NCBI RefSeq assembly: GCF_006345805.1
Contig: NC_043013.1
Location: 39,742,001-39,806,000, forward strand
From: Octopus sinensis
Taxonomy: Eukaryota
Length of the DNA: 64,000 nucleotides
Direction of reading: 5' to 3'
The translations under genes were made by a program, and so were the position numbers. How positions within the stretch are numbered: position 1 is the stretch's first letter; the number at the start of each line of letters is the position of its first letter. Below the pieces are notes generated by a model. It did no database searches and was not told the origin of the DNA. It saw nothing but the letters and a program-made list of their open reading frames with translations. This document shows, piece by piece, positions 6,237-36,127 of the stretch.

Positions 6237-6416
6237 GAGGTAATTATGCTGATAAACAATGTGAATATAATATAATGGGTAGGGTTTGATATATCTAACA
6301 GACTGAAGATTTCAGACGAATAATATTTAAGTATATATTCAAAATGTGACCGCGTGTGTACCGTTGGCGATTTTTTTCCTCCGTCTTCCCTTTTTTTGGA
6401 TCTTTCCTTTTCCTAT

Positions 6417-6451
6417 GTTTCTGACGAAGAGATCCGCTCGAAACGTAAAAC
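6417..6451 (+). ncRNA. Minimal type I hammerhead ribozyme motif in a PLE-terminal module (~6340-6545)
   Basis: GUUU CUGACGA A GAG-AUCCG-CUC GAAAC GUA/AAAC. The core is intact, stem I is GUUU/AAAC, and stem III is the loopless palindrome ACGU. The module ends in (TA)n. Confidence 0.75.
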
Positions 6452-7265
6452 CCTCCTTCTTCCTTTCTTCCTGAGCGTCCAATAATTTGTTCCACGTCCT
6501 CGCGTTGTTGTGTTTTCTCTTTGTGTTTTCATGTTTGGATTAACTATATATATATATATTCTTTTTTCTTTGTGCATAATTATGAAATCATATGATCTGC
6601 AGCTGAATCTGTTTTTAAAAGGCTTGCTTCGAGAGTTGCATTCCCTCGCGTTTGGTACAATGTATTTATTATTGTAGTTTTTACTTTAAGAGTCCCTCCT
6701 AGCGTGGAGGTATTTATGTATAGTAATGCCCTTAATATAGATAAATATATTTAAAGAGAATAATTAATAAATTTTTACCTTATGATGTTTTTCACGCTAA
6801 CTGTTTGATAATTTCTGATAAAGATTTTATCCTATTTGGGAATTATATATATATATACATACATGTATGTATGTATGTATGTATGTATGTATGTATGTAT
6901 GTATGTATGTATGTATGTATGTATGTATGTTTGTATGTATGTATGTATGTATGTATGTATGTATGTATGTATGTATGTATGTATGTGTCTATGTATGTAT
7001 GTGTCTATGTGTGTATATGTAAATGTGTTTGTGTGTGTGTGTATTTATACATATATTTATGTATGTGTGTGATACATAAAGTAACTACATGTACGAATAC
7101 ATACAGACGCAAACTCATATTTATATAGCACCACAAGCATCTCAGAGGTATCCATGAATATATACCCACACACATACACACATACACGCGCACGCACACA
7201 AACACACACATACATACACACACACACATATGCATATATAAGATTGATGCTTGCGTATGTATGTG

Positions 7266-7520
7266 TGAAGGCGCGTGGCTAAGTGGGTAGGGTGTTCAGC
7301 TCACTATCGTAATCTTGCGAGTTCGATTTCCGGCGGCACGTTGAGTGCTTGTGCAAGATACTTTATTTCACATCACTTCAGTCTACTCATCTGGCAAAAA
7401 TCATCAATACCTGTAATTGAAAGGGGCAACCCTGTCACATTCTGTATCACGTTGAATCTCCCTGGGAACTAGGTTAAGGTTAAACGTGTCTGTGGAATAT
7501 TCGGCCACTTTCACGTTCCT
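7266..7520 (+). mobile_element. Family C SINE, diverged
   Basis: Head GGCGCGTGGCTAAGTGG...GAGTTCGATTTCC; body GTGTCTGTGGAATATTCGGCCACTT is shared with 53223-53607. Confidence 0.75.
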
Positions 7521-7781
7521 TTCAATACCTCACGGTATTTGACTCAGCACTCAAGGGTCTGAATCCAAAAACCTCCAGCATCAACTGTTCTTTTCAACCT
7601 GTTGGGGTGGGGTCAATAAAAAAGTACAAATCCAGGACAGTGGACATAAACAAACCAACACCAGTTGTCAGGCGGTGGTGGGAGACAAGCTCAATTACGT
7701 GACCATACACAAAAATATATACATAACACACAGACACATTTATATATATATATTTATTTATATATATTCATATATATATAC

Positions 7782-7850
<69 letters not shown>

Positions 7851-7907
7851 ATATATAAATTACAATATATATATTATAATATAAATATATATATATATAT
7901 TATAATA

Positions 7908-8144
7908 TATACATATTAGAGGGAAACCACTATGTGGACAACCTTATGCTAGAAATAGATCCGCTACGGTCTTACCACTAAGAAATGTTCTCAAGAAAAA
8001 TTTAGCAAAACAACCAAAACGTAATCGAGCAAGACAAAAATTTTGCTAAATTTTTCTTGAGAACATTTCTTAGTAATAAAACCATAGCGGACCTATTTCT
8101 AGCATAAGGGTGTCCACATAGTAGTTTCCCTCTAATATGTATAT
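7908..8144. repeat. Long inverted repeat (~100-bp arms, ~30-bp spacer) between (TA)n tracts
   Basis: ATTAGAGGGAAACCACTATGTGGACA...GAAAAATTTAGCAAAA pairs with TTTTGCTAAATTTTTC...TGTCCACATAGTAGTTTCCCTCTAAT. Confidence 0.9.
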
Positions 8145-8291
8145 AATACAATTTTACTGAAACTTCAGTTTTTTTTTTATATGCTAGACCACTGGTGTGA
8201 AATCGATGTTAATTAAATTAATAACTAATTTCTCACCCTCATTTTAAATTTAAATTTATATTATAATATATATATATATTATAATATATAG

Positions 8292-8365
<74 letters not shown>

Positions 8366-8468
8366 TAATCCAAACAAGAAAACACAAAAAAACAAAAAAC
8401 ACAACAACGCGAGGACGTGGAACAAATAAAGTATTATTTGACGCTCAGGAAAGAAGGGAAGAAGGAGG

Positions 8469-8503
8469 GTTTAACGTTTCGAGCGGAGCTCTTCGTCGGA
8501 AAC
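8469..8503 (-). ncRNA. Hammerhead-like motif with a core variant (CCGACGA); inverted homolog of 6417, in module 8362-8533
   Basis: Minus strand: GUUU CCGACGA A GAG-CUCCG-CUC GAAAC GUU/AAAC. Confidence 0.55.
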
Positions 8504-8720
8504 ATAGGAGAAGGAAAGATCCCGAGAAGGGAAAGGTAAGCAGAGTTAGCGGTTATAGTAACCGACTAAGGCATAAATTATTCGTATTTACTATCGATAT
8601 CATTTACCTGGCCATGAGTATGCAGGCACACTATGCTCGTAGTGTACAGGTAACAATAGAATGAGCAAAAGCTTATCAGGAATCAAATTTAAATGATTAG
8701 AAAATGAAGAAAATCAAATC

Positions 8721-8894
8721 AATTGGACCACATCTGTAGCTTATTACTATTTAATACAAAACATGACATAACATAACATTTATGTGACTTAACAATTCTT
8801 ACGCCCATTTCCGGAAGAATTGTTATATCACATGAAAGTTATGTTATGTAACGTTTTGTATTTAATAATAATAAGCTACAGATGTGGTCCAATT
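8721..8894. repeat. Foldback palindrome / MITE-like hairpin
   Basis: AATTGGACCACATCTGTAGCTTATTA...AACAATTCTT pairs with AAGAATTGTT...TAATAAGCTACAGATGTGGTCCAATT. Confidence 0.9.
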
Positions 8895-11078
8895 ATTTTG
8901 TTGATCTAAGGTTTTCCTCCATTTTCTCCATTTATGGAGCTAAGCCATAATATCAATAACAACAGTGTCTGATATAAGGAGGGCCCTCAGTCGGTCTACG
9001 ATGACGATACATGCGCACAGCTATGTGCAGGCCGTGGCAAGTATTTTCGCTCAGGAAGACTAGAAGTCGCTCCTGCATGGATGTCTGCTCTCTCCATGCC
9101 ACCGATATTTATCCAAGAAAAAAGATGCCAGCTTGGGTCGGCAAGCCTTAATACAAGTATCAGAACACAAAGGGCCAGAACGTATACTGCAAGACATTTT
9201 GCCTGAACCCCAACCTGTTCCACCTGTGCACTGTCCTGGATCGGTATTTTTTTATTGACCTTACTCCAACAGGATGAAAGGCACAAATAATGTTAGTGGT
9301 TTTGGGATTCAGACCTTTCAGGGCTGCAACAAATATCGTGTGGTATTGAAAAGAACGCTCTAACGACTGTTCCAATTCGCAGCATTGAAAGCGTAACTCT
9401 TTAAATTGCCATTTTTTCTTACCTGTAACTGGTCGCTCGACCTGTTAGAAACATCAGCCAAATTTCCCATGAAAGAAGAAGAGTGATACAATATATATTG
9501 TTGCTCTATATGGCCGAATGGCTAAGAGGTTTGTTCCTCAATCACGACGCCCCTAGTTTCATTTCAGTACGTGTTACCTCATGCAAGTGTCATTTACCAT
9601 AGACTCAAGTCGACCCACAAGAGCCTGGTTACTGAAATTAGGGAAGCACAAGATGTGCAAAAAGCCTCCGGGTGGGTTGCACCCATAAAATGAATGTCCA
9701 GCGTTGTTATGAACACAGGCTCATGCTGATGTCGATTCTGCCGGAGAATTTCAGTTGGGATGCATTTGTTTGTCAAATGGTTAACCGCTTATGCGTTAAT
9801 TCTATGGACAAGTAGTTCGGTTGATTGAAGAACTGAATCTTGGTCACCGACAGAAATTCATATTTTTAGATGCGTGGATATGAAACAAAGCAGTCGGTTT
9901 GGAATATCTTCGGTCGGGCCCGAAATGAGAACAAACAGTGGTAGCAATAAGAGTTTATAACCAAACCTTAGGCTCAAGACGGTAAAAAAAAAAATAGCAG
10001 GCAAATAGGTTTTATTAAAACAAAACAAACGACAAAAATAGATAACTCTGGGAGCCAGTTTTAAAATAGTCGTCATGAAGGATATTTTAATCATTAGAAC
10101 TTATTAATATAAAAGCGATGATTCAACTGGAACCCATATTGAAAAACGATGAAAGTAGTATTTTTGTTTAAACATCATTAATGGTTTCAATGATAAAAGA
10201 GAAAGAAATTGGAAAGATGCCGTCTTGTTTTCCTTAATCACTGACGAACATTCATCTCGATCTTTGAGAGACTGCGATAGAATATTAATTCCTCATTTCA
10301 TTCTTCATTTAGTAAACGTTGTCTTTATTTGTTCTACATTGTTTCTATTCATAGATTATAGAACTATAAAGGAAATGGGGGGGTTATTTATAATATTGCT
10401 TTATTTTCAAAGCATTTTCTAATCATCGTCGTTCTTTCCGTTGTTCTTGTCGTTCTTTTGAAAATTATGTTTAAGAACAAACAAGAATAAAATAAGAGCA
10501 ACAGCGATCGTAATAAGAAGAGCAAGAACAACACAACTACCTGTACTGAATTTACTTTAATTTTCTAATCAAGAGGGAGGGCAGTCCCCACGACCTGTTA
10601 CAGGATGGGTTGGAGGAATGCCCACAAACTGGAAATCTAGTCCAAATGCTTGCATTAAAGTGGACTTCGCAAAACACCACCCAAGATGGGGAGGGGGGAT
10701 TAAGCCGGACGACGATTATGTCTAACACCCAAATAGGCCATGATGGGACTTGAACTCACAACTCAAAATGCCGAAGCAAATACTTCAAGACATCCGGTCC
10801 GGTGTTCTTACAGTGGCACCAATCGAAGTGACTGACAAGGTTTTCCATATAAAAGTTGATAAAGCATGTGAGAAAAAAAAAACGCACACGTGCGCACACA
10901 ACATTGATAGATAAACAGATAGTAGAGAGAGAGAGAAAGAGAGAGAGCGAGAGAGAGACCGACAGACAGCAGACAGACAGACAGACAGGCAGGCAGGCAG
11001 ACAGACAGGTAGATAAATAAAAAGATAGATAGACAAACAGATAGATAAATAGATCGATAGATGATAGACAGGTAAGAT

Positions 11079-11173
<95 letters not shown>

Positions 11174-11236
11174 TAGACAAACAGACAACCAGACAGACAG
11201 ACTGATGAGATTTATTTTGTCGCTCTACGGGGTTAA

Positions 11237-11336
11237 NNNNNNNNNNNNNNNNNNNNNNNNNNNNNNNNNNNNNNNNNNNNNNNNNNNNNNNNNNNNNNNN
11301 NNNNNNNNNNNNNNNNNNNNNNNNNNNNNNNNNNNN
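11237..11336. other. Assembly gap (100 N)
   Basis: Run of N adjoining a (TG)n tract. Confidence 0.99.
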
Positions 11337-11383
<47 letters not shown>

Positions 11384-11571
11384 TGTTGTGTGTGCGCGTG
11401 TATGTATGGATGGATGGATGGATGGATGGATGGATGGATGGGTGGATGGATGGATGGATGGATGGATTGATGGATAGATGGGTGGGGGAATATAGTTTAT
11501 TGAAGCTAACTTCTTATATTATGACGCAAGTTTTAAGTGCGATCTTCAAACGAGGGGGCACGCACACACAC

Positions 11572-11628
11572 ACAGCAACGTGAAACTCAGAATAACAGGT
11601 TTGTTGAATTTATGCTGCTTTAAATAAA

Positions 11629-11678
<50 letters not shown>

Positions 11679-11812
11679 TTATATATATATATATACCTAT
11701 ATATATATATATATATATAATATATATATACAAATATATATATACATACATATATACAAATATATATATATATATACTTTATTTAAAGCAGCAGAAAATT
11801 CAACAAAACCTG
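11572..11812. repeat. Truncated PLE-terminal modules in inverted orientation around a (TA)n tract
   Basis: GCAACGTGAAACTCAGAATAACAGG...GCTGCTTTAAATAAAG with its inverse at ~11777-11812. Same family as the 26700 and 27600 modules; only half of the hammerhead remains. Confidence 0.7.
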
Positions 11813-12517
11813 TATATATATATATATATATACGTACAGGTATACATACGCAGGCATAGATATCTCCCAAACTTTTATTGAATTAAAAAAATAATTATCA
11901 TTTCAATATTTTATTAATTTATTTTTTAAAATCTTTTTATTTATTTATTTTTTTTCGCTACCAGTTTCACTCTTTAATTACGACATCTGTGAAATATATT
12001 CTCCACGAAGTCTCAGAGATGCTCTGAATTCATCACTAATTTATCGGTGTTATTTTCTTTTGTTTCTCTTTTTATTATTTCAAAATCGGATTTCCGTCAT
12101 TTTGACTATTAAATATATTTGCTCCAGAATTTAAGAAAAAACACAAAAATCGCCATTTTTTTTTTTTTTTTCTTAATTCATATTATTACAAATCTGTTCG
12201 ATTTTAATGAGAAATTCATTAATTAGCAATGGAATAACATCAACAATTACAAGGCAAATCATTTTGCTGAATTTCTCTCTCTCTTTCTCCCTCTCCTTCT
12301 TCCTCTTTCTCTTTCTTCTTTTTTTCTTTCTTTCTCTCTCTCGCCCTCCTCTCTCTCTCTCTCTCTTAAGAATATTTATGTAGGGTAGATATGCCCGAGT
12401 GCTTGTATGTTTATATACGAGTGAGCGTGGGTGTACATATGTGTGTATGTGTGTATATGTGTGAGTGTGTATAAGATACAAATATGTACGTGTATGTGTA
12501 TGTGATTGTGTGTGTGT

Positions 12518-12558
<41 letters not shown>

Positions 12559-12735
12559 TGTGTGCTCGCGTATATTTGTTTGAGCTTGAATATTATCAAT
12601 GAAAAGGAATGTGTTTGTGTATTTATCTACCTGTCTCTGTGTAAATGTGTCTGCGTGAATGAGTATATGTATATTTGTATATCCGTAATATGTATCATAT
12701 ATGCATATATATATGAATGTATGTATCATATATAC

Positions 12736-12770
<35 letters not shown>

Positions 12771-13145
12771 AGAGAGAGTGTGTGTGTGAGAGAGAGAGAA
12801 GAGAGGGAGTGATGTGTTTATTTATGTTTACATACACACACGCAGATATAATAATAGATATACACCCCTTCCACACACACACACACACACACACCTCCGT
12901 TTACACTAGATTCTTTGCAATTTCTAGTTTCTATGTTATTTTTTAGCAACGACTTCTTGATCTCACCTATAAACACCCCCACCCCTACTTATATTAGACG
13001 CTTTGTGTTTTTATGCTTTTATTTTCGTCCCGATCAAATCACCCTCACTTTACCAAATGTGTCTGAACTGCTAGTATCTCACCACCAGCATATAACTTGA
13101 AACCAAAATGAATGTGAATCTGGTAACTTTTGAAGCATGTTACGT

Positions 13146-13248
13146 CACCTGATGAGGTTATTTTGTACTGTGAGTTGCATCTGATGTCATTATGTCGTCC
13201 CACGCCCGTTAGGGAGCAGTGCAGAATGAAGCCGAAACGATTGTTGTG
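13146..13248 (+). ncRNA. Type I hammerhead ribozyme motif with extended stem II
   Basis: CAC CUGAUGA GGUUAUUUUGUACUG...CAGUGCAGAAUGAAGCC GAAAC GAUU GUU/GUG, followed by AATAAA and then (TA)n. Confidence 0.65.
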
Positions 13249-13716
13249 TTAATAAATGATTCTGGTTACACTCTGTCTTCCGTATTAATCATTTAAAATA
13301 TATTCCCCGCTAGCAATATATATATAGGTTATAAAATGAGATAGGGGTTGAAAAATTCAACCCACCATGGGATAACATATATCCAATATACTGCTAGACA
13401 GGTACCCAACAAGACTAATACATAGATGTTAAAAATTACCAAGCAATTAGTTCATCTATTGTATTATATGGGCAAAGGTAATAATATTACCGTAAATATA
13501 TATATATATATATATATATAAAACTTAGAGAAAACTTAGATATGTTTCGACCAAAGATTGGTCCAGGCCATGTCTTATATATATATATATATATATATAC
13601 ATATATATTGTATCTTGAGGGTGCAGTGTCGCACTGATACCCAGCTGGCGGATAATGTGCCTGGGGTCAAACTGGCGGGAGTGAGCCCTAGCTATCGTTC
13701 TAAGGGCCAGGTACTC

Positions 13717-13760
13717 ACAACTGAGGATGAAACCAAGCAGCTCGAAACTGAGTCAGTTTC
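13717..13760 (+). ncRNA. Putative hammerhead-like motif
   Basis: CUGAGGA U GA...UC GAAAC UGA GUC. Core boxes are present but stems I and II are weak. Confidence 0.35.
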
Positions 13761-14215
13761 GCGATCTTGTTGCCCGATAGAGGATGGTAGCCGGTAAATT
13801 GACTGCTAAAGTTTATTAACTGCAGAGTAATTTCCGATCTCAGCGCGCCAAAGTGAAGGCATTTGAAAGATACACATAAATGTAATTTGTAGAACTTTAT
13901 ACATACTGGATTTCGGTCGAGCGTTCTGTATCTAGTTCTGGAAATTGTGTTTTGTAAACGACAAACTATGCTGATGATCTTACAGATGTTTGCGTATCCA
14001 TATACGTAAATATTGACAAATGAAACTAATTAGTACATAGGTAATCGTAAATTTTCATTTGTCTTGCTTATTTTTACACTTTGGTACATACATACATATA
14101 TACACACATACATATACGCATATGTGATTTGTGTGCTTGTAAATGTACCATCACTGTATACACATACATACATTAATACATCTCTGTATATATAAATATA
14201 TATTTTTATCTTATA

Positions 14216-14608
14216 CTAGCAGTATCGCCCGGCGTTGCTCGGGTTTGTAAGGGAAATAATTATATAAGCATTTTTAGAGATGTAAAGTATAATAGCCATC
14301 TCAATATGGCTAACCACAAAGGAGGAGGGGTGTTACTGTAGCTTTTTACGTTCTGAGATTTAATAATAAATTTTAGAGAGTTACTTCCCCTTATATATGT
14401 CAAAAATGGATTAAAAATGGGAAAAATTGATGGTAATTTTTTTTTTAAATCGTAGACTCCGTAGACGCGCGCTAATACCCAGACGGTCTCGATATGAATC
14501 ACGACGATAAGATACCCGGTTTTGGTTAACTGCACCGCAAAATGTGGGAGTAGTTAGGAATCTAAATCGTAGGAGACAGACACACAACCTCACTTTTATA
14601 TATAAAGA
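14216..14608 (-). mobile_element. Non-autonomous Helitron
   Basis: The minus strand starts TC(TTTATATATAAAA) and ends with hairpin CCCGAGCAACGCCGGG plus CTAG. It sits between A and T, and its 3' ~100 bp is shared with 61196-61583. Confidence 0.8.
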
Positions 14609-14768
14609 TTTCCTCTATTAACATAATATTGAGGTCTCTTCTTTTCTTTTGTTATCTTACTGTTTTTACCAATATACATATATATATAATATAAATATAT
14701 ATATATTACAGAGATGTACTTGCATAGCAAGTGACTTGATCTGAGATCGTGTGCTGGAACGAAAACAG

Positions 14769-15021: not shown

Positions 15022-15099
15022 ATATATATATACACCATATATATATATATGTATGTATGTATGTATGTGTGTATATGTGTATGCATGTATGTGTGTGTG

Positions 15100-15315: not shown

Positions 15316-15382
15316 TACATTCTCTGCTTTGGTCTTATGTTCAAGGCATGAGAAAGCTTGAGTTTACATGAGAAGGCCTAAC

Positions 15383-15858
15383 AGACCTGGTAGAAACAGC
15401 AGCCAAATCTCCCTCAAATCACACCTTACTGTCTTATGTATGTATATATATATATGAGCCATGAGGGGGACCTCTACATGGTAGCTAGACCTGGTAGAAA
15501 TAGCAGCCAAATTTCCCCCCAATCACACCTTACTGTCTTATCTATGTATAATGTATGTATGAGCCTATGGGGAGACCCCTACATGGCCTAGACCTGGTAG
15601 AAATAGCAGCCAAATTTCCCCCAAATCACACTTACTGTCTTATCTATGTATATATGTATGTATGAGCCTATGAGGAGAGACCCCTACATGCAGCTAGACC
15701 TGGTAGAAATAGCAGCCAAATTTCCCCCAAATCACACCTTACTGTCTTATCTATGTATATATGTATGTATGAGCCTATGAGGGAGACCCCTACATGGCAG
15801 CTAGACATGGTAGAAATAGCAGCCAAATCTCCCTCAAATCACACCTTACTGTCTTATC
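15383..15858 (+). repeat. Minisatellite, ~105-bp unit, ~4.5 copies
   Basis: AGACCTGGTAGAAATAGCAGCCAAAT recurs at about 15383, 15487, 15590, 15696 and 15803. Confidence 0.95.
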
Positions 15859-17297
15859 TTTCTGCTACTTGGATATAGGTGTTATATTCGTCGTAAAAAA
15901 CTTTCCTGTCACACACTCACGCACACGCGCACACACACACACACACACCACACGCACCCTCACACACACACACACGCGCACACCCACACACTCACTCACC
16001 ACACGCACGTTAGCTTACAATTTTATTTATATTTTGCGTGTCTATGTGTGGAAAGAGGAAGTGGGAGGCAGAGTGAAAGAATCACTCACTACAGTAAGTC
16101 AATTACTTTCATTTTATTCGTTGCCCACTGTGTGTGGCGTTGCGTTTGTGCCGTAAACCAGACTAAGAAAGCATTGACACACACACCAGAATGTGAGTTT
16201 TCTGTAAATTTTGCTTAATTGGAGTTTAAATTTTAAAAACTGGACCTGGCATGACGCGATGCATTGTACTCTTAAAAATGCAAGGTAAATTGTAATTGAA
16301 GAAATCCTATATTGTAGATTTGTATAACTCCCAAAGGGAGGCAGATAAAATCTGCCTTTTATAATAAGAGATTAAACTTTTTATACTTTTTGATACTTAT
16401 ATATATTTAATAAAATAAAAATAAATAAATATATATATATATATATAAATTTATAAATATAAAATAATAATTTCAAATTTTTAACTTAAAATTTAAATTA
16501 TTTAAATTTTGAATTTTATATTTGATACATTTTGTATTTTATATGAATTAATTTTATTTCTATGTTTTGGTTTATGTTTTTCACTGTTTGATTTGCCTAA
16601 TAGTGGTTTTATCTCTAAGTTAATTTATAAATAAATATATATATATATGTGTGTGTGTGTGTGTTTGTATGTGTGCGTGTGTATGTGTGTGTTTGTGTGT
16701 GTGTTTGTATGTGTATGTGTGTGTGTGTAGATGGATGGATGGATGGATGAATGAATGGATGATAGATGGATATATGTATGGATGTACACAATTAAGATAT
16801 ATGTATGCATGTGTAAATCTGTGTATGTTTGTGCATGTATGTACATATGTGTCAGAGTGTGTTTGCTTTTGTAACACTCATTGCCTTTTTAATACAGACA
16901 GTCTTGGATAATTAATACACATTTTGTAATGATCAAAGTCTCTCGACCACATTCGTGCTAAATGTCGACTGAATAATATTTGAAGGTCAACAACCGAAAA
17001 AAAGGAGGAAGGAAAAGCAGATGTAACGCAAGGATATAAACGCGCCTACATCCACACAAATATCTGCGCGTATTTGTTTATATATATATATATATATATA
17101 TATACATACATATATACAGACAGACAAACAGATAGATAGATATGTAGATATATACATACATGGACAGACAGATAGATACATACATACATACATACATACA
17201 TACATACATACATACATACATACATACATACATACATACATGGACAGACAAACAGACAGACAGACAGATAGACATACATACAGACAGACAGACAGAC

Positions 17298-17379
<82 letters not shown>

Positions 17380-17399
17380 TGTTTTGCACTTTGAGCTTG

Positions 17400-18073: not shown

Positions 18074-18149
<76 letters not shown>

Positions 18150-20219: not shown

Positions 20220-20518
20220 TATATTCTATCGTTTTATTCGTTTCAGCCAAGCAGCTGCGAACATACAGGAGCACAATCGTGCAAACTAAAAAAGTTATAT
20301 GGGACACTACACTAATCTGCGTGTCATCAAGGGCCATGCTATTTTTCTCTGTATCGTTCCAATTTTCGTCAAAAATTAGGTTAAAAAATAAGGGAATTTC
20401 TTATACATGGATAGTATGATAATCTTTTGCAAAACCTTTTTACCAAAGTTGAAGTACCAAAAATTAGGGGGTTCCTCATGCACGAGGCTTCCTTATACAC
20501 GTTAAAATTCGGTGTATG

Positions 20519-26007: not shown

Positions 26008-26094
<87 letters not shown>

Positions 26095-26232
26095 GTGGTG
26101 TGTGTGTGTGTGTACAAATATATATAGATAGATAGAGTTCAAATTTACCAAAAAGAAAAACGAAAGACGAAGACAGGTGTTGGAACAACAAAAGCATGTG
26201 TATTAGTTTAACGTTCGGGAAAAATGGAAAAG

Positions 26233-26270
26233 TCTTATACGTTTCGAGCCTACGCTCTTCGACAGAAAGG
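26233..26270 (-). ncRNA. Hammerhead-like motif, CUGUCGA core variant, in PLE-terminal module ~26135-26320
   Basis: Minus strand: CUUU CUGUCGA A GAGC-GUAG-GCUC GAAAC GUA/UAAG. Confidence 0.5.
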
Positions 26271-26722
26271 AATAAAAGGAAAAGTGGAGAGAGAATGAAA
26301 AAAAACGGAGAGAGAAAAACTGTCTAGAGTTCAACAGTCCAACATGGCTTGATGACTAGAAAAGAAGAGGTTGAACGAAAGGGAGATAATAAAAAAAGCG
26401 GTTGAAAGAAACGTATGCATGTATGTACGTATGTATGATTTATCGTTATGATATTGTGAGCGCCTGTGTGCTTCCAGCATTGGACTGAAGAGTCACATAC
26501 GCTCTCAACGCTGATATCAAAAGCTTTTACACTATTGGACACTGATGGACTACTAACATATATATATATTATATATATATATTATATATATATATTATAT
26601 ATATTATATATATATATACCGGAGTAAACACATAAATGTGAAACAAGGGGAAAAAAAGAGTACTCAAATACCAAGTGGTAGAGTAATATGCTTTATTTTA
26701 AGCAGCAGAAAATTCAACAAAT

Positions 26723-26760
26723 CTGTTACTCTGAGTTTCTCGTTGCCGTTCATCAGAAGT
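26723..26760 (-). ncRNA. Hammerhead ribozyme motif (left arm)
   Basis: Minus strand: CUU CUGAUGA ACG-GCAA-CGA GAA ACUC A GAGU A/ACAG. Stem I has a 1-nt deletion relative to the right arm. Confidence 0.6.
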
Positions 26761-27585
26761 TTTTGCTAGAATGGACCAATATATATTAATTCAATCTATA
26801 CTCTTACAAACGCTACACCTTTAAAAAGAAATGGACTTGTTTGATTGGCCCTTTAGAAAAAAAAAGCAATGTTGTCAAATTTAGAATGTTTATATAAGTT
26901 TGTGTATAGCAAAGCATATGATTTGTAAGCATGCGTATCTGTGTATGTGTAAGTGAAAGTATGCTTGTGCTTAAGCACGCATACACACGACGGTATGTAA
27001 TGTATCAATTCAAACTTGTGTATGTATACTGGCTCTATAGATGCCAATAACATCGCTACAAGTTTCCCCCCCACCCCTCTTTCGTTCCTTTTTCTCTCTT
27101 TCCCTTTCTTTGTTCCCCCTCCTTGCTCAGTATATGAGAATTGCTACATAGATGAATTTTAGCTTGCGTGCGAGACGGTTTTGCGTGAATATATGTACAC
27201 ATGCTTTTATGTGTATAATTTAGATTCATATTCATACGTCTGTATATGTATGTATGGCGTTTACGCGCATCCTTTTGTGTATGTTGATATATATATGTGG
27301 ATTTTAATATAAATATGTATTGCAGTATTTATAACAGGTTTAATTTCTATGCATTAATTTGTACTGTCTTCAATAACGGCAATAGGTTTTTTCCTCGGTT
27401 TTTTTCCTCGGATTTATAATTTTTATAAGTTTTTATATATATATACATATATTTTTGACCTTTTTGTTTATCGCTCGAGATTGACCGTTTTTTCTAAGGG
27501 CCAATCAAACAAGTCCTTTCTTTTTAAAGGTGTAGCGTTTGTAAGAGTATAGATTGAATTAATGATTGTTCCATTCTAGCAAAAA

Positions 27586-27623
27586 CTGTCTGATGAACGG
27601 CAACGAGAAACTCAGAGTAACAG
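27586..27623 (+). ncRNA. Minimal type I hammerhead ribozyme motif (right arm)
   Basis: CUGU CUGAUGA ACG-GCAA-CGA GAA ACUC A GAGU A/ACAG. It has a GNRA-capped stem II, a near-palindromic stem III and a GUA cleavage triplet. Confidence 0.75.
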
Positions 27624-28289
27624 ATTTTGTTGAATTTTCTGCTGCTTAAATAAAAGTATATATATATATATTATATATGTGTGTGTGTGTGTGTGTGTGT
27701 GGTGTATGTGTGTATGTGTGTGTGTGTGTGTTATGTGTGTGTGTGTTGGTACTTATATGTGCATATATGGATACAGGACGTCACAGAACGTAAACAACAT
27801 GAAATATTAAGAAAAGCTTAGATATGCGAGCAACGAAAGAAACAAATGGAAAGCAAAACAAGTAACATAAAGAACGATATTTCATCAGTTGTCGGTTGTT
27901 TTTCTACTTCACATTTCGAGCAATTCACGACAACATGTAACTTCGAAAAACAGTTGATCCCGCGAGCCAAAATAAAATTTTGGATTTGCGGAGGGTCAAA
28001 GTTGGCAACAAAAACAGGAGAGGGGAGACATACAATAAACCAAACGAAGACAAAATATGGAGGACCGTTAGGCTTGACGAGGGAAGGTAGCGAACGCTGG
28101 ATGAATATTCTTTGACAAGAGAAAAGATAGGAGAGAAGACAGACTGAAGGAAAATAAAGATGATCACGTGAGAAAAAGAAAGATGGACGGTGGTCACGTG
28201 TGAGCAACGAGAGAGAAGTAAAGGAGGAAGAGGGAGACAGGAACTGAAAGAAGCTCACCGTGTGTGTGCGTGTGTGTGTGTGTGTGTGG

Positions 28290-28900
28290 TGTGTACTTTG
28301 CACTGCTGTGTGAAAGTCACATCCATCTTTTGATTTCCTTCTTGATAGAGCTTTGATATTACAATAATCTTCCATTTCATGTATTTGAAAGACTCTTCCT
28401 TTAATTACTAGATGTAGTCCGCCTATTTTATGAGTTCTCACTCATCTAGAGCTCTTAAATAGAAAATACTGTTGTAAAATGATTGCTTGGGCTTCCCTTC
28501 AGGTATTTGTATTGCCAATATGAAGTTTGTTTTATAGGAGTGACATCTGCTTTATTTACTATAGCTTCTGTGCAACAAGGCATATTTAGTGAACATGTAT
28601 TGGTGTTGATACATGTGAGCATGTGGCCTCAGTTATACTTAGGAATGCTTTTGACTACTTGTTATAAACTGTAGTTTAATAACAGATTGCACAATTAAAA
28701 AAATCTTTCTATATTCAAGGCTTACTGGGAAATGCTTATCAAAGTTGGAAAGATATTCGCAATATTTGTCAAAAGTTGTGAATTTGATCATTTTGTTTTT
28801 CATATTGTTGAACCAATCAATGGCGGATGTACAGTTGATCCACTTCATTAGTTGAATGTCTGATTTTGGAGCTGATACCTTCCTAGCGCACGGCTGATCA
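28290..28900 (-). mobile_element. Decayed Penelope-like element (RT motif fused by deletion to linker and GIY-YIG remnant)
   Basis: MKWINCTSAIDWFNNMKNKMIKFTTFD (pre-motif-A region), DKHFPVSLEYRKIF, and CSLNMPCCTEAIVNKADVT resembling CPLxGxCLxxxIVYKAxV. Multiple frameshifts. Confidence 0.6.
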
Positions 28901-29334
28901 GTGAGAAGTTGACGAAAGTTTTCTACGACCTTTCTTTGGTGATCATTCTATATGATTTATGGCTGTTGTCTTGATAGCGTTTCTGTCCTCTTTTCTATGT
29001 GTAAGCATTTTGGTATTTCTGCGTTCCTCTGTTGATCACGTTGTATATGTTAAAATTTGAACAGAAATTTGTTACTAGATTACAGATAGGATAAAGAACG
29101 AGCGGTTACCAACACGAAAACCGTACAACACACTGAAGGACCACAAGACTAACTTCTTAGCAAGTCATTAAATGCAGACATATCAACACAGGGAATGGCA
29201 TAGTAAGAAAATCCTAGAAGATATATCAAGTTCAGATTTAGACAAACAGACAAGCAACATGATCAGACACAGACACACACACGTGTGTATGTATCTCCAT
29301 ACGTATATGTATAGATATATGTATATATATATAC

Positions 29335-29386
<52 letters not shown>

Positions 29387-29387
29387 G

Positions 29388-29430
<43 letters not shown>

Positions 29431-29468
29431 ACGTATATATATATATATATATATACGATATATATATA

Positions 29469-29508
<40 letters not shown>

Positions 29509-29564
29509 ACACAGATACAGAGATATATATGAACACACAGATACAGATATAGGTATATGCATAT

Positions 29565-29595
<31 letters not shown>

Positions 29596-29623
29596 CTGAC
29601 GTGTGTTTATGTGCGTCTACGTA

Positions 29624-29668
<45 letters not shown>

Positions 29669-30904
29669 TGATACACGTACATTATGTATCTGTTGTTTCA
29701 GGTGACTATGAAGTATGATTAACAATAACTCAGCAGAAACTAATAATAAATAACGGTTGTCCATTAGATTCATAAACATGCCTCATAAATGATGTACAAA
29801 TGTGGGGAGTACGAGAAAAAGAATATGGAGTAATACATCTCGTGAAAGAAGATACACTTTGACTGCGGCAGACGATATTTTCGTGTCTGTCAGATTTAGA
29901 GAGAGAAATAACGAAGATAAATACATAGTGGGAGTAATGGTGGTATTAGTGAGAGAGGTAGAGGGAGAGCGAAGCGTGAAGGGTGAAAGATAGTGTTGTT
30001 TAGAAGGAGGGGGATTGAATAGGGGGAGAGTATATGAGAAGCGTGTGTAGGAGAGATGATAGATATGTACTATGACGACGAAAGGGAGGAGGGAGATTTT
30101 AGGTTGATGCTGGAGGGAAAGGAACGAGGGAGAAGAGGAACGGATTGTAAGGAAAGAGGCGAGAGAGAGGGGACATTGGATGGATTGGAGATTTAAAGAG
30201 ATATGAATGTGAAGGTTTAACGATAGAGAGAGAGGAAGAGAGAAACGAGAATGAAAACGTGTTTGCGAGAAAGAGATAATGATAATGATGACGATGATGA
30301 TGATAATGATGATGATGATCATCGTCATCATGATTATGATGATGGCGCTGATGGCGATGGTTAAGTTGATGATTATGATGGAGATGGTGAAGAGGACGTC
30401 GACTACGACGACGACAACGATGACGATGATTATGATGGTGCTGGTGGTGGTGGTGGTGGTGTAGTGTGGTTTTGGTGGTAGTGGTGGTGGTGATGTTGGA
30501 AGTAGTGGTTGTGGTAATCGTCGTCATAATTGTAGAGTGAATGTAAAAGAATTTGAGATATAAAAAAAAAGACAAAGGAATGAATAGGAAAAGAGAAAGA
30601 AAGAGAGAGAGAGAGAGAGAAGAGAACTTGACAAAGAGAGGTGAAACAAGGAAAGAGGAATACTAAAAAGAGTGAGTGTGTTTATGACACAGAAATGAAG
30701 GTCTGGAATGTGACAGGATAGAGAAAGATAAGTGATTGGGAGTTGAAGTTAATGGCGAATTTAAGCATAAAGGTAGAAAGCAATGGAGAAAAGCAACATG
30801 GGGACAAGCAACGGGGCTGATATAGAGAAGATAAATCAGTGATATGAGGAAAAGGTGAAGGAAAGTTTAAGAATAATAGAAATAATGGAAAGTTAGAAGA
30901 GGGA

Positions 30905-30960
<56 letters not shown>

Positions 30961-31245
30961 TATATATAATATATATATATATAAATGATCATTAATATGG
31001 AATTATCAAACCAGGCAAAAATAATTTTCAAGCTCTCAAGTACATCAGGCTGGCAAATTATTTTCACCTTGGTATAGGATTCTAGTTAATCCTAACGCAA
31101 GATCAAAATGTTGAAGTCCATCACCAGTCGACTTAGTAAATCCATGGTTGCATTCCCCAGTTAATAAGGTATTTTTCATAGAGTGATATATAAGAAAAGG
31201 AATAAATAATGAATTTTACATATTTACCAATTTGTGCATCGTAGA

Positions 31246-31452
31246 CTTACGGCTGTTTCTGATATACGATACAGGTGCGTTCATAGTTCCGTTTACTCAA
31301 TCGGTCGACCAATCGATTGAAAACATTGGACGACCTTAACAAATACTATCATCTTCAGAGGTCTCGCACCGAGTTTTTCAATCGATCAATCGACCGATTG
31401 AGTAAACGTAACTATGAATACACCTGTAATGTATATCAGAAACGGCTGTAAG
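31246..31452. repeat. Inverted repeat / MITE-like foldback (~80-bp arms)
   Basis: CTTACGGCTGTTTCTGATATAC...AATCGATTGAAAA pairs with TTTTCAATCGAT...GTATATCAGAAACGGCTGTAAG. Confidence 0.9.
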
Positions 31453-31856
31453 CTTGCAATATATATATATATATATATATATACATAGAAAGAGAGGGAG
31501 AGAGAGAGAGAGAGAGAGAGAACTAAAATATCTCTCTGTTTATCTATCAATAACTTTCTTTCGCTTAATCTTTCTCTCCCTCCCTCCCTCACTCTCTCTC
31601 ATTCTCTCCTTCTCTTTATAGACACATGTACTCATACACACACATACACACACACACACACACACTCACACACACGCACGTAGACCAGTGGTTTGCAGCT
31701 ACCGGAATGCAGGCAGGAACTTGATCAACTCCAATAAGTTCAAATGGGCAGGAGGGTACGATGTTGAAAAACTCGAAACACTCTGAGTCACCTAGGCTAT
31801 CACTGACGATGCATCCCGTAGCATCCGCAAGAATATGCATCTTAAAACCATACTTT

Positions 31857-31921
<65 letters not shown>

Positions 31922-32025
31922 GGAATGGTCATTTGCCAGTTTAGCCAATAAAAACACACGCACTATATATTTGGTGTTATTTTGCTTCAGTGATATTTAT
32001 TTTTACATTAATCTTAATTTATTTC

Positions 32026-32070
32026 GGCCAGAGTTCTTTCGTCACACTCCTGTGACCGCATCAGTGGTCC
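32026..32070 (-). ncRNA. Hammerhead-like motif (CUGAUGC variant) inside module 31919-32110 with ~35-bp inverted ends
   Basis: Minus strand: CCA CUGAUGC G GUCAC-AGGAGU-GUGAC GAAAG AA CUC/UGG. Module ends are TTCGGAATGGTCAT..GCCAGTTTAGCCAATAAAA and its inverse. Confidence 0.5.
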
Positions 32071-32180
32071 TTTGTTTTATTGGCTAAACTGGCAATATGA
32101 CCATTCCGAAAATAACAATATCTGTTTCAACACACGACTTCACATAAAAAAATCTTGCACAACAAATATTTAAACGTATA

Positions 32181-32240
<60 letters not shown>

Positions 32241-32296
32241 GTGTGTGTGTAGTGTGTGTGTGTGTGTGTGTGTGTTGTGTGGTGTGTATATATTTA

Positions 32297-32990
32297 GGGG
32301 TACGGAAAGTAATGTCAGATTCGATGTAATGAGTTCGAATATAATTATTCATTCAAAATATATTCGTCACCATTAGAAATAAGATTTTCCCATGTAGAAA
32401 CCAGCAATCTGATTTAACGGACAAAAATAAAATTAAGTCTTTTAGAAGAAAATAATGCTTGGAATACTGTTTCGACATTGTCTCTGCTTCTGAATGGTTC
32501 TTCACAAGTAAAGTATTTAAGAGACCCGAATAAGTGAAACCCTGCTAGTGCTAGATCCGGTGAGTAGAGAGGGCGAAGGAGTAAGATTCCCAGTCTAATG
32601 AATTTATTTTTCCTTGGCTTATCTTGTTGGAGGCACTGCTTTATACTCGGGGTACAGATCACTGGTAATTACTTGCCTTGTCTATACCCTTTTCCAATTT
32701 GCTTCAGGTGCTCTCGCAGATTTGGCCTAGGTATATTAAGCCTCTAGCTAAGTCCCAGATTTTTTGACTCCGATACTCATCAATTGTTGTTTTCACTGCG
32801 TCATTATTGATAACAGTTGGTCTTCTTAAATGATACCCAACTTAAAGATAGAAATTATCATCTTTCTTTTTAATTTATTGAACCACCTTTGGCATTTTCA
32901 AACACACACCATTGTAACGTACATATTTATATTGCCGCTCTTTCGAAATTCGTAAAGTATACACCATGCAGCTCACTAAAGTCCTTGTTT
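32297..32990 (-). mobile_element. Decayed mariner element
   Basis: LGILLLRPLYSPDLALAGFHLFGSLK contains the YSPDLA motif; N-terminal remnants lie upstream. Confidence 0.8.
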
Positions 32991-34179
32991 TCCATGCGCT
33001 ATCAGATAGAACATATACACTCACGACATGTGTTCACATTAACGTTTTTGTCATTAACTCTACGTTGATTGGTTGATTACAAGGAGACCTATTACTGCCC
33101 TGCAAACTACGTGTGGAATATCAGAATATTTGCTTAAAAATACTTTATATTTACAATATATATGTAAAAGGGAATTGAAGAAATAAAAGGAAAACAAATA
33201 TGGAAGAAAGGGAGAAAAAGAAAGGAACAAACAAAGAAACAAAGATGAATTTGGTGTTTTGGGATTTTTTTCAACAACAAAAATAACCCCTGTGAATGTA
33301 ATGATTAAATATAATGATTAAAGAAACATTCGTGACTAATCAACATCACTGTTTGGTCCAGTGAACAAGGGAGATAATATTGAACATTTCTCATTTTATT
33401 AGGCTTCATCAGTGGAAGTATAGTTTCATCAATGTTTGATGGTACTGTAGTAAGTAGATTAATGTATAGAATATGTAAACGTTTGATACAAGCATTGATA
33501 AAAACCCTTGATACAAACGTTGATATAAACGTTGAAAATAAACCCACAATTTTTATGGTTGAATTTATAAAACGAACACTACTTTTATAATTATATTATC
33601 AATTAATCTCATTTTTCCGGCGCTACTCGATCATTTCTCATCCTTAAATACGTGGTTAGTGCAATTTCATAATTAAATATATTAGCTAAGAGCTTCAGAA
33701 TATTAAAAAAAAACCGTTGCGAGAATAGAGATCAGATAACAACCTCACGCAATTCAAGCAACAAAACGCCTCAATGTAAACAGTTGAAAGGACAGTATAT
33801 CCGTCATTCTGATAGCAATGGTCGAATTATAGCCAGGAAACTAATCCGAAATGATACAGATAACAGGAAAATAATTTGTAGCTAAAATGGTTATAATAAC
33901 AATAACAATAGTAATAATAATGAGTGTTTGTGACAGTGATCATAATAATGATGATGATGATGATGATGATAAGCAGAATTAGTGGGGAGCATCATAGCCA
34001 TGTATTGAGCGGAATTCTTTGGGGTTTGAATAATTTACCACTGGAAACACGGGTGTTTCGTTCCACATCCTTAAACAACCATTATTCAGGGACCTTTTGA
34101 GCGGGATTTGCTACTTGACATGAAGAAAATTCTAACTGGGTCCCACCAGCAAGGTCGTGTGTGTGTGGGGGGGGGGGTG

Positions 34180-34335
34180 CTTGTGTTTGTACCCTTACCA
34201 TCGCTTGACAACCGATGTTGCTGTGTTTACGTTCCCGTAACTTAGTGGTTCAGTAAAAGACGCCGATAGAATAAGTACTAAGCTTACAAAGAATAAATCC
34301 TGGGATCGATTTATTCGACTACAGGCGGTACTCCT
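34180..34335 (+). mobile_element. Family A SINE, 3' fragment
   Basis: CGCTTGACAACCGATG...GATAGAATAAGTACT. Confidence 0.75.
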
Positions 34336-34667
34336 GGTTTGTGGATATCCCTAATTGCATAATATTTTTATTTCTGGTGTTAAATGTTTTAATCCTTTCT
34401 CTTTTCCTTGCATACTGTTTTTCTCTGTTATCTTGGTGTGGTACGGTGGATAATTTTAAGACTTTAGCTCTTATTGCTTATCAAGCATCCTTACGCTTCG
34501 TACAAATTTATAATTCATAGTTATTTTATGCTATTGCGCCTGCGATCCACCTATGCCACTGCTGTTGATATCAATTCTAAAATTTATCCACAGATGATAT
34601 GAACAGTAGTGACATCTGATTTCAAATCTGAGTGTTTGAATGTTTTGCGTATATATACATACATACA

Positions 34668-34750
<83 letters not shown>

Positions 34751-34804
34751 TATGTGTGTATATATATAGGTGAGAGAGTTGGTGTGTGAAAGCACTTTGT
34801 TGGA

Positions 34805-35872
34805 TGTATAAAAAATAAAAAAGAGTGAAAAAACTACAGAAGGCTTGTTTTATAAGGTTAAAGAATATATTTAAGTTGTTATGTTAGAAAAATGTTATAA
34901 AATTTTGTGTATAGTAACATAGTTTTCGTATTTTCTTTTCAAATTTCTCAGATTTCTTTACCTACATCATGTCATGTCTTCGCTATGAAGTAAAGAGTTC
35001 CAGGCAGGGGAAGGTAATCAGGGATCTCTTCCTGTATAAGAGAGATAATCGCTTTATATTTTTGTTCTTTTTTTCAATGAGATAAGTTTCCTTGCATAAA
35101 AATGTTAGATTGGCTAAGTTTTGGTTTATATTTTTCAATGAAGAATGTTTCCTTGTTTAATATAATTTGTGTTGGTGTTCCAATAGCACATTGATAGAAT
35201 TGAAAGATTAAAAATTGTGGTAGTAGTTGCTTTGTGCATTTCTCAATATGTTCACTAAAGGGTATCATTCTCTATTCTGGGGATGCAATCTGTTGTCGAT
35301 GCAGAGTGCATCTGCGTCTGAGCGATAATCCCGTGGATCCTATGTAGTGTTGGTGGCAGCCCGAGCATCTTATGACATAAATTAGATTTTCTGAAGCACA
35401 ATTAAAATTAGATTTGATCTCGAATTTTTGTCTCTCTTTGAAGAGGAATTCTGATCCTTCTAGAAAGTTTGGGCATGTTGCGCAGTTTGGTTTACCACAT
35501 CTTTTTAATTTTGCATCCGTTATTTCAGAAAACAATTTTGCCTTTTTTAATGATTTAGGTTGTTTGTAGCTTTTAATGATTTTATGAATGTTTAGAATTT
35601 CCTTTTATTTGGGGGTCCTTATGAAGCATTGGTAAATTCTGGGTGATGATGGTGAAGGCTTCTTTGTTTCTGGGGTTGTATGTGTATATGTAAGGCAGTA
35701 TTTTCGGGGAAGGTGTGTTGCTGTGTTGAACTTTTCTTAAAGTTTCTGTCTCCAAAAACTATGTTACTATACACAAAATTTTATAACGTTTTTTCTAACA
35801 TAACGACTTAAATATATTCTTTAACCTTATAACAAAAGCCTTCTGTAGATTTTCACTCTATTTTATTTTATA
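34805..35872 (-). mobile_element. 5'-truncated Penelope-like element (Neptune-type GIY-YIG endonuclease) with ~120-bp inverted terminal arms
   Basis: CGKPNCATC...FNCASENLIYVIRCSGCHQHYIGSTGLSLRRRCTLHRQQI (35272-35535) continues in frame past one stop into 35074-35268 (...KETFFIEKYKPKL). 34805-34926 is the inverse of 35754-35872, and (TA)n lies on both sides. Confidence 0.9.
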
Positions 35873-36007
35873 TATATATATATATATATATAATATTATA
35901 TATATATATATATATAAAGGGAAAGTTTACGAAAATAAACAAAAGACGAAGGCAGGTAGAGTACAAACAAACAAATGTATTAGTATAGCGCTCAGGAATA
36001 GAAAAAG

Positions 36008-36045
36008 TCTTTTACGTTTCGAGCCTATGCTCTTCGACAGAAAGA
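36008..36045 (-). ncRNA. Hammerhead-like motif, CUGUCGA core variant, in PLE-terminal module ~35917-36090
   Basis: Minus strand: UCUUU CUGUCGA A GAGC-AUAG-GCUC GAAAC GUA/AAAGA, with stems I and II perfectly paired. Confidence 0.55.
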
Positions 36046-36127
36046 TACACAGAAAAAAACAAGGAGAGAAAAAAATGCGTGTAGGAGCTAATGTGTATGT
36101 GTATACACACCACACACACACACACAC

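What the first reader, a model, noticed from the sequence alone, without database searches (positions are those of the whole stretch)
6340..36090. Many hammerhead-bearing mini-modules docked at (TA)n microsatellites
Seen: about nine CUGANGA...GAAA-type motifs at 6417(+), 8469(-), 13146(+), 13717(+), 26233(-), 26723(-), 27586(+), 32026(-) and 36008(-). They fall into several distinct sequence families, and each lies in a 150-250-bp non-coding module ending at or near a (TA)n or other microsatellite tract. Known: Penelope-like elements and retrozymes carry minimal type I hammerheads with palindromic stem III that are thought to cleave as dimers. Inference: this is a diverse (TA)n-associated PLE or retrozyme-like system. 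If the region is an intron, minus-strand copies could cleave the host pre-mRNA.
Basis: partly seen in the sequence, partly recalled or inferred. Interest (0 to 1): 0.75.

Follow-up and report, generated by a model that had tools for sequence, protein, structure and literature searches.

The report
Penelope retrotransposon ends with altered hammerheads
The nine motifs are hammerhead-shaped RNA motifs in the tail ends of very abundant repeats, most of them truncated Penelope-type jumping genes that sit in TA microsatellites, which is known biology; the twist is that three families spread to thousands of copies with a changed core base predicted to weaken self-cutting, so cutting is likely not what limits their spread.

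Summary
All nine motifs are real, but only five have the full CUGANGA core. They belong to eight insertions from six repeat families. Families A, C and F continue upstream into RT plus GIY-YIG reading frames in other copies, B does so through a sister subfamily (Neptune type for A and B, Hydra type for C, unplaced for F); no coding parent was found for D or the retrozyme-like E. (TA)n docking holds genome-wide (8 of 10 complete 3' ends against a 4.7% background) and is already published for these clades. The window is a dense but ordinary sample of roughly 90,000 such motifs. No host exon was found, and all five minus-strand copies have an altered core or a broken stem, so host pre-mRNA cleavage is unsupported. 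What is new here: lineage-wide core changes. Family B has A6U in 12,543 exact matches against 128 with A6, while varying at the positions a hammerhead leaves free; A is mostly U4C, F mostly A9C. The scan noted A6U before in Neptune elements of another genome. Cleavage is untested, and one key paper on such variants could not be read.

The parts
6323..6544 (+). Family A 3' end (Neptune-type pLTR), canonical core CUGACGA at 6421, ACGU palindrome, GUA site at 6445-6447, stem II cut to 3 bp by a point change; (TA)n 6545-6558 follows
8362..8533 (-). Family A 3' end, U4C core (CCGACGA) at 8499, GUU site; (TA)n 8266-8361 follows
12938..13302 (+). Family D 3' end, canonical core at 13149, 78-nt stem-loop II, near-palindromic stem III; short TA run at about 13315-13326; no coding parent found
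13618..13790 (+). Family E fragment (old, retrozyme-like repeat of about 350 nt); core at 13721, stems I and II damaged against the family pattern; downstream part of the unit lies upstream of the motif; (TA)n on the 5' side only
26118..26322 (-). Family B 3' end, A6U core (CUGUCGA) at 26265, first pair of stem I broken; short TA then (CA)n follow
26615..26862 (-). Family C (Hydra clade) inverted arm with the tail; core at 26756, stem I damaged; (TA)n 26558-26618 beyond
26859..27657 (+). Family C forward arm: 3' UTR and pLTR, 96.8% identical to the intact element in L261; core at 27590, stem II of 2 bp with A-A at 10.1-11.1, GUA site; (TA)n follows
31919..32185 (-). Family F two-armed insertion (pLTR end plus inverted end with tail) inside (TA)n; A9C core (CUGAUGC) at 32064
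35917..36091 (-). Family B 3' end, A6U core at 36040, ACGU palindrome, GUA site; (TA)n 35869-35916 follows
34823..35858 (-). 5'-truncated Neptune-type element: linker zinc finger and GIY-YIG remnant (35110-35755) with inverted ends, between (TA)n tracts; a different family from A-F
11572..11629 (+).
11777..11813 (-).

Best explanation
The nine motifs are hammerhead-shaped motifs in the 3' ends of eight truncated insertions from six repeat families, at least three of which run on into protein-coding Penelope-like retrotransposons elsewhere in the genome, and they likely got here when the elements' GIY-YIG endonuclease nicked (TA)n tracts and reverse transcription stopped early. Shown: family membership, the link of A, C and F (and a sister of B) to RT plus GIY-YIG frames, fixed 3' ends, the optional tail, inverted arms, (TA)n flanks, and lineage-wide core changes. 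Inferred from published work on PLEs: nicking of AT-rich DNA, priming inside the pLTR RNA (which explains the tail), dimer folding through the palindromic stem III. Predicted: the solitary copies in this window are mostly dead as ribozymes, since they have no partner copy nearby on the same strand or have damaged stems; in the parent elements the motif is a slow, possibly protein-assisted dimer ribozyme whose fold is kept by selection while the cutting rate is not limiting, which is why U4C, A6U and A9C lineages could expand.
For: C: intact pLTR-ORF-pLTR of 3,363 bp with a 721-aa frame and an inverted 5' copy bearing the tail (L261); RWK, DKT and CxCX5C (intact in L263, changed in L261) as defined for Hydra; its hammerhead shares stem I and stem III with Hydra-2_aMil in Craig's File S2. 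F: 889-codon open frame with RT and C-terminal GIY-YIG about 550 nt upstream of the motif (L266). A: L272 and L273 are colinear over 5,288 columns at 84.5% and carry broken RT and GIY-YIG pieces upstream of the motif. B: an 81%-identical sister end lies about 840 nt downstream of RT (Pfam RVT_1, E 1.2e-7) and GIY-YIG pieces in L275/L276. (TA)n: 8 of 10 complete 3' ends in 600 kb taken at even steps, background 4.7% (binomial P about 1e-9); top genomic hits A 27 of 28, B 24 of 28, C 22 of 29 plus 7 with the tail. In L261 the internal pLTR runs into the tail, not into TA, so the TA is target, not template. Core changes: B 12,543 exact matches with U6 against 128 with A6; A 8,260 matches, 72 of the first 100 listed with C4; F 2,176 matches, 96 of the first 100 with C9. 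In 46 distinct B copies found by homology, position 6 is U in 42 and C in 3 of 45, position 7 takes all four bases, position 17 is A, U or C and never G, and 18 of 22 constrained positions are at least 90% constant against 31 of 105 flank positions. Contigs of four runs with four organism labels show the same: differences at positions 7 and 17, none listed at position 6. A and B swap one stem I pair (G-C against C-G), stem II 98% paired. Hammerhead mutants do not reduce insertion of the anole PLE in vitro (PMC11167929).
Against: No cleavage or RNA data: no listed run was on record as RNA and all were contigs. No coding parent for D (four upstream stretches) or E. The B parent is a sister subfamily (CUGUUGA), not the exact CUGUCGA subfamily. 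The A and B frames found are broken. The covariation is one event between two families. The homology search for B copies required overlap with the motif, which favours a conserved motif, and part of the 3' flank is also well conserved, so selection on the hammerhead fold is likely but not proven. Predicted minimum-energy folds of several copies are not the hammerhead fold. No tree with reference RTs was built.
Confidence: 0.85

Rival explanations
1. The modules are non-autonomous retrozymes: short non-coding units that cleave, circularise and are re-inserted by a borrowed PLE enzyme.
For: Family E has a 6-bp stem I, a GUC site and a canonical core in many copies, shows partial head-to-tail repeats at 351 and 358 nt in two loci, and the window copy has the downstream part of the unit in front of the motif. 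Retrozyme monomers of about 300 nt are described in PMC7229834 (passages).
Against: A, C and F have variable 5' ends that run on into coding frames. The 546-nt spacing of F copies in L277 is a duplicated two-armed insertion, not a monomer. E repeats were seen in few of 30 loci.
Confidence: 0.1
2. The altered-core motifs are dead relics; lineages with broken ribozymes simply drifted to high copy number and nothing now selects on the motif.
For: Single changes in the CUGA turn gave low activity in a full mutational scan (PMC9901934, passages); natural A6C cleaves at under 0.1 per minute (PMC3088659 section 8); Naiads thrive without canonical hammerheads (PMC8557442). F has a single dominant form, so it cannot show selection.
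Against: In B, subfamilies about 20% apart in the flanks differ in the motif almost only at positions 7, 17 and loop II. This rival concerns the function of the motif, not its origin, and is compatible with the PLE origin.
Confidence: 0.3
3. The copies are intronic ribozymes that cleave a host pre-mRNA and so regulate a gene.
For: None found. Minus-strand A and B copies share the ACGU palindrome, so cross-pairing within one long transcript is conceivable (inference).
Against: No Pfam-supported host exon among 106 window frames or 118 frames in the flanking 200 kb apart from mobile-element hits and a broken tRNA-methyltransferase-like piece about 37 kb beyond the window; short exons could be missed. 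All five minus-strand copies have an altered core or a broken stem I. Copies are ordinary decaying family members.
Confidence: 0.03

Closest known systems
Minimal type I hammerheads of metazoan Penelope-like elements (Cervera and De la Pena 2014, PMC4209133; text parts 1-2 of 4 read, supplement file 2 passages; file 1 not searched)
   Same: Short stem I, extra base between 9 and 10.1, G10.1-C11.1, palindromic stem III, thousands of solitary copies from truncated elements, several families per genome, inverted pairs close together.
   Different: They report CUGANGA and the U3-A8 swap (also present in this genome). In what I read they do not report family-wide U4C, A6U or A9C; their descriptor fixed the core.
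Hydra clade PLEs (Craig et al. 2021, PMC8557442; sections 11 and 12, passages, supplement rows)
   Same: Family C: C-terminal endonuclease, RWK, DKT, CxCX5C, CxxC and CxH, (TA)n target, hammerhead with the same stems I and III as Hydra-2_aMil.
   Different: Element is 3.4 kb (most are under 3 kb); stem II is down to 2 bp with an A-A mismatch in the young subfamily; its hammerhead differs from that of the listed octopus family Hydra-1_oBim, so it is another family.
Neptune clade PLEs (Neptune1_Ap rows in the supplement of PMC8557442)
   Same: Families A and B: CX4CxxC linker, C-terminal GIY-YIG, RT motifs that read like Neptune1_Ap by eye, microsatellite targeting.
   Different: Lineage-wide U4C (A) and A6U (B); A has a 3' UTR of about 3 kb rich in (CA)n.
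Poseidon element PAc of the green anole (Frangieh et al. 2024, PMC11167929; parts 1-2 of 4 read)
   Same: Tail at one arm only, AT-rich targets, hammerhead in the pLTR; gives the mechanism inferred here.
   Different: Different clade, canonical core; tested in vitro, which nothing here is.
Metazoan non-LTR retrozymes (PMC7229834, passages; bioRxiv 10.64898/2026.07.22.740005, part 1 of 5)
   Same: Family E: unit of about 350 nt, 6-bp stem I, partial head-to-tail repeats.
   Different: A, C and F are ends of coding elements; no long arrays or circular RNA shown for E.

Membership tests
Endonuclease-bearing Penelope-like elements | Single frame with RT and C-terminal GIY-YIG upstream of the terminal repeat | tested here: met
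   C (721 aa) and F (889 codons) open; A broken; B via sister subfamily. Not found for D and E. Pfam gave no family for the C frame and only a sub-threshold RVT_1 for F.
Endonuclease-bearing Penelope-like elements | Partial tandem forming pLTRs, inverted 5' arm, optional tail | tested here: met
   L261 has all three; window C and F insertions are two-armed with the tail on the inverted arm; D shows a tail in 5 of 16 parsed loci.
Endonuclease-bearing Penelope-like elements | RT groups with reference PLE clades in a tree | not tested
Hydra clade (family C) | RWK, DKT, CxCX5C linker, CxxC and CxH in the endonuclease | tested here: met
   (CxCX5C intact in L263, one cysteine changed in L261)
Hydra clade (family C) | Insertion into (TA)n | tested here: met
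   22 of 29 top hits end in TA, the other 7 in the tail
Hydra clade (family C) | Generally shorter than 3 kb | tested here: not met
   3,363-bp repeat unit; a tendency in the paper, not a strict rule
Neptune clade (families A, B) | CX2-5CxxC linker before a C-terminal GIY-YIG, DKG motif | tested here: met
   CSRSRCNTC and CSRPRCRTC; ADKGG in A; the DKG region of the B sister was not recovered
Neptune or Nematis (family F) | No insertion in the RT fingers | tested here: not met
   131 residues between RT motifs A and B against 59-62 in the other elements; F is left unplaced
Minimal type I hammerhead | CUGANGA and GAAA core | tested here: inconclusive
   Met in 5 of 9 window copies; U4C, A6U (two copies) and A9C in the others, family-wide
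Minimal type I hammerhead | Stems I and II, palindromic stem III, NUH site | tested here: met
   F stem III has two A-A mismatches as a dimer, C lacks the 10.1-11.1 pair, three window copies are damaged
Minimal type I hammerhead | Self-cleavage (as a dimer) | not testable with these tools
   Needs an in vitro assay or raw RNA reads
Non-LTR retrozyme (family E) | Head-to-tail non-coding units of about 200-400 nt | tested here: inconclusive
   Partial repeats at 351 and 358 nt in 2 of 7 loci checked; only 1.5 kb of flank seen on each side
Non-LTR retrozyme (family E) | Circular monomeric RNA | not testable with these tools
   No raw RNA reads listed

The most novel reading that the evidence does not exclude
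A6U is a working alternative hammerhead core: in this Neptune lineage the dimer-type ribozyme has been kept under selection through at least four subfamily expansions with U at a position held to be invariant, it arose after the split from the A6-bearing sister family A (RTs 73% identical), and, if the scan's unchecked notes on a shark-like genome hold, it arose there independently. Penelope-like elements would then tune their ribozyme down again and again (U4C in both a Neptune and a Hydra lineage here, A6U, A9C), or use the fold as a protein-bound element rather than a fast cutter.
Probability: 0.3. Interest if true: 0.62.

Novelty: new variant of a known kind. Interest (0 to 1): 0.36.

Why it matters
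The main picture is known, so it matters mostly as annotation: this genome holds on the order of 90,000 hammerhead-like motifs from many PLE families. The open question it touches is what the PLE hammerhead is for. Sister lineages with canonical and altered cores in one genome (U4 and C4 subfamilies of A; A6 in family A against U6 in family B) give ready-made pairs to test whether cutting rate affects retrotransposition. It also warns that searches with a fixed CUGANGA core miss the most abundant families.

Tried and rejected
Rfam scan: no hammerhead family among the 150 rows shown, which were mostly microsatellite hits to miRNA models. The repeat finder was swamped by microsatellites. A and B modules next to long Neptune frames found with GIY-YIG lie in varying positions and directions and were rejected as those elements' own ends; they are nested insertions. 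First search for family E returned a neighbouring repeat instead; repeated with a shorter query. No coding parent for D in four upstream stretches of 6-7 kb; E was not followed beyond 1.5 kb. The idea that the canonical U4 at 6421 is CpG decay from C4 was rejected as the sole cause: U4 copies share their own flank differences. The 546-nt spacing of F copies is not a retrozyme monomer. Host gene: none found by Pfam; splicing across the window was not examined, so the intron question stays open. No RNA holder listed for family C; this is no evidence on expression. Lunse, Weinberg and Breaker 2017 (RNA Biol 14:1499, on small PLE hammerhead variants) is not held; I saw only its reference line, and it may already describe these core changes. 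Paper searches for the variant cores and for octopus PLE hammerheads found no description; the 2026 octopus repeat annotation has no 'hammerhead' or 'ribozyme' in its main text.
Full report
Setting. The window is G000:C17:39,742,001-39,806,000 of a 2.72-Gb animal genome, 37% G+C and rich in microsatellites. The nearest named protein to one element is 97% identical and labelled Octopus vulgaris.

Observation. All nine motifs exist. Five have CUGANGA (6421, 13149, 13721, 26756, 27590); 8499 has CCGACGA, 26265 and 36040 CUGUCGA, 32064 CUGAUGC. The motifs fall into six families, each with 118 to 1,143 first-look candidates in the genome. They make eight insertions, not nine: 26756 and 27590 are the two arms of one insertion, 26615-27657.

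What they are. Family C: L261 holds an inverted end with a tail, then pLTR, a 721-aa frame and a second pLTR 3,363 bp on. The protein has RWK, DKT and, in L263, CxCX5C, the marks of the Hydra clade (PMC8557442 section 11), and the motif shares stems I and III with Hydra-2_aMil (supplement row). The window's forward arm is 96.8% identical to it over 841 columns. Family F: an 889-codon open frame with RT, CX4CxxC linker and GIY-YIG ends about 550 nt before the motif, with an inverted arm upstream (L266). Family A: two long copies are colinear over 5,288 columns and carry broken RT and GIY-YIG pieces about 3 kb upstream of the motif. Family B: an end 81% identical to the window copy follows RT and GIY-YIG pieces in L275/L276. 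The A and B proteins are 73% identical over 240 residues and read like Neptune1_Ap in the published alignment (by eye). Family D: shared sequence runs about 900 bp, no frame found upstream. Family E: old (75-89% identity), canonical core with a 6-bp stem I in many copies, partial head-to-tail repeats at 351 and 358 nt: retrozyme-like, not settled.

(TA)n. In 60 stretches of 10 kb taken at even steps, 18 family copies were found; 10 had a complete 3' end and 8 of these were followed by (TA)4 or more within about 30 nt, against 4.7% of random positions. Among top genomic hits: A 27 of 28, B 24 of 28, C 22 of 29 (7 more end in the tail), F 10 of 28 (14 in the tail, 4 other), D 5 of 16 parsed (5 tail, 6 other). 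In the full element the inner pLTR continues into the tail and not into TA, and two-armed insertions have TA on both sides, so the tract is the target. This preference is published for Hydra, Naiad and Neptune.

Is the window special? The same descriptor gave 31 hits in 600 kb (shuffles 10, 12, 10) and 13 in the 200 kb beside the window (shuffles 4, 1, 3). Seven in 64 kb against 3.3 expected has P about 0.05, in a window with more TA tracts than average. The net rate gives roughly 90,000 motifs genome-wide, a rough figure.

Altered cores. Exact 30-35-letter patterns gave: B with U6 12,543, with A6 128; A 8,260, of the first 100 listed 72 with C4 and 28 with U4; F 2,176, of the first 100 listed 96 with C9, 3 with A9, 1 with U9. 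The B copies with A6 show all four bases at position 7, as expected of scattered later mutations. In 46 distinct B copies collected by homology outside the query-biased loci, position 6 was U in 42, C in 3, A in none of 45; position 7 took all four bases; position 17 was A, U or C, never G; 18 of 22 constrained positions were at least 90% constant against 31 of 105 flank positions (the collection required overlap with the motif, and part of the 3' flank is also conserved). Contigs of four runs (four organism labels, three studies) listed differences at positions 7, 17 and loop II and none at position 6. Between A and B one stem I pair is swapped; 87% of cells pair, stem II 98%, slid controls 20-55%; that is one evolutionary event. 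Some Hydra subfamilies also carry U4C. Published tests predict weak activity: single changes in the CUGA turn are low-activity (PMC9901934 passages), natural A6C cleaves at under 0.1 per minute, U4C is slow in vitro yet enough for a viroid.

Mechanism. Inferred from the anole element (PMC11167929): the protein nicks AT-rich DNA and starts reverse transcription at one of two sites inside the RNA, which gives fixed 3' ends with or without the tail; early stops give the short ends seen here, and a switch of direction gives the inverted arm (inference). In A and B stem III is only ACGU, too short to close a hairpin, so two copies on one RNA are needed (PMC4209133). Solitary copies kilobases apart or on opposite strands are therefore predicted to be inactive. 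Hammerhead mutants did not lower insertion in vitro and cleavage needed the protein, which fits the spread of altered-core lineages.

Host gene. No Pfam-supported exon among 106 of the window's frames of 50 or more codons (102 chosen from 121 unmasked frames by G+C, plus 4 others) or 118 frames in the flanks. Splicing across the window was not examined. All five minus-strand copies have an altered core or broken stem I. The host-cleavage idea is unsupported.

Novelty. PLE hammerheads, their abundance as solitary copies and (TA)n targeting are known. Family-wide A6U, U4C and A9C in PLEs were not found in my searches, but Lunse et al. 2017 could not be read, and file 1 of the Cervera supplement was not searched. 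The scan's own unchecked notes report A6U in Neptune elements of a shark-like genome and two-armed TA insertions elsewhere in this genome. Homologues of the B-type RT include a ray protein at 59%, lower than the 73% between A and B, which would make the two A6U events independent if those notes hold (inference).

Verdict. Real, mostly known biology; a new variant in the cores; interest 0.36.

Noticed in passing
L266:3972-6638 (+), parent of family F: The RT has about 70 extra residues between motifs A and B (spacing 131 against 59-62) together with a C-terminal GIY-YIG; 79 of 80 parsable homologues (of 101 found) have a spacing of 127-135. Craig 2021 describes a fingers insertion for N-terminal-endonuclease clades and some Coprina, not for C-terminal ones; one paper search found nothing further. 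Possibly an unnamed PLE clade of marine animals.
   Followed up: partly
window 34823-35858 (-): Truncated Neptune-type element with linker zinc finger and GIY-YIG remnant and inverted ends, docked in (TA)n right behind the family B copy; no hammerhead recognised in its 3' part.
   Followed up: partly
window 20293-20389 (-): U6 snRNA copy, 54.1 bits (gathering 44), decayed at the 5' end, next to a (TA)n tract; likely a retrocopy.
   Followed up: no
window 28642-28947 (-): Weak remnant resembling a Hydra-type RT (E 0.004 within a 1.1-kb subject; no Pfam hit).
   Followed up: partly
L092, L100, L109 and others: A Neptune family with long open frames carries the U3-A8 core (UUGAUAA) about 570 nt after the stop, as described for Schistosoma.
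   Followed up: partly
L281-L360: Many further hammerhead families with canonical cores and different stems (for example stem III ACAUAUGU, ACACGUGU, AUUGGUCCAAU).
   Followed up: no
window 6414-6447 and 8473-8506: In family A the 5' strand of stem I plus C3 can pair with GAAACGU, a competing fold; it is the predicted minimum-energy fold for the 6421 copy.
   Followed up: no
L354:6974-7303 (-), about 37 kb beyond the window: tRNA (guanine-1)-methyltransferase-like piece (Pfam E 3.8e-11) with stops and frameshifts around it; likely a retrocopy.
   Followed up: partly
window 15383-15859, 40899-41495, 44818-45340: Tandem repeats of 107, 322 and 37 nt unrelated to the finding.
   Followed up: no
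window 13788-13880 (+): Abundant 93-nt repeat end directly after the family E copy; it looks like a DNA-transposon terminal repeat (recalled, not tested).
   Followed up: no
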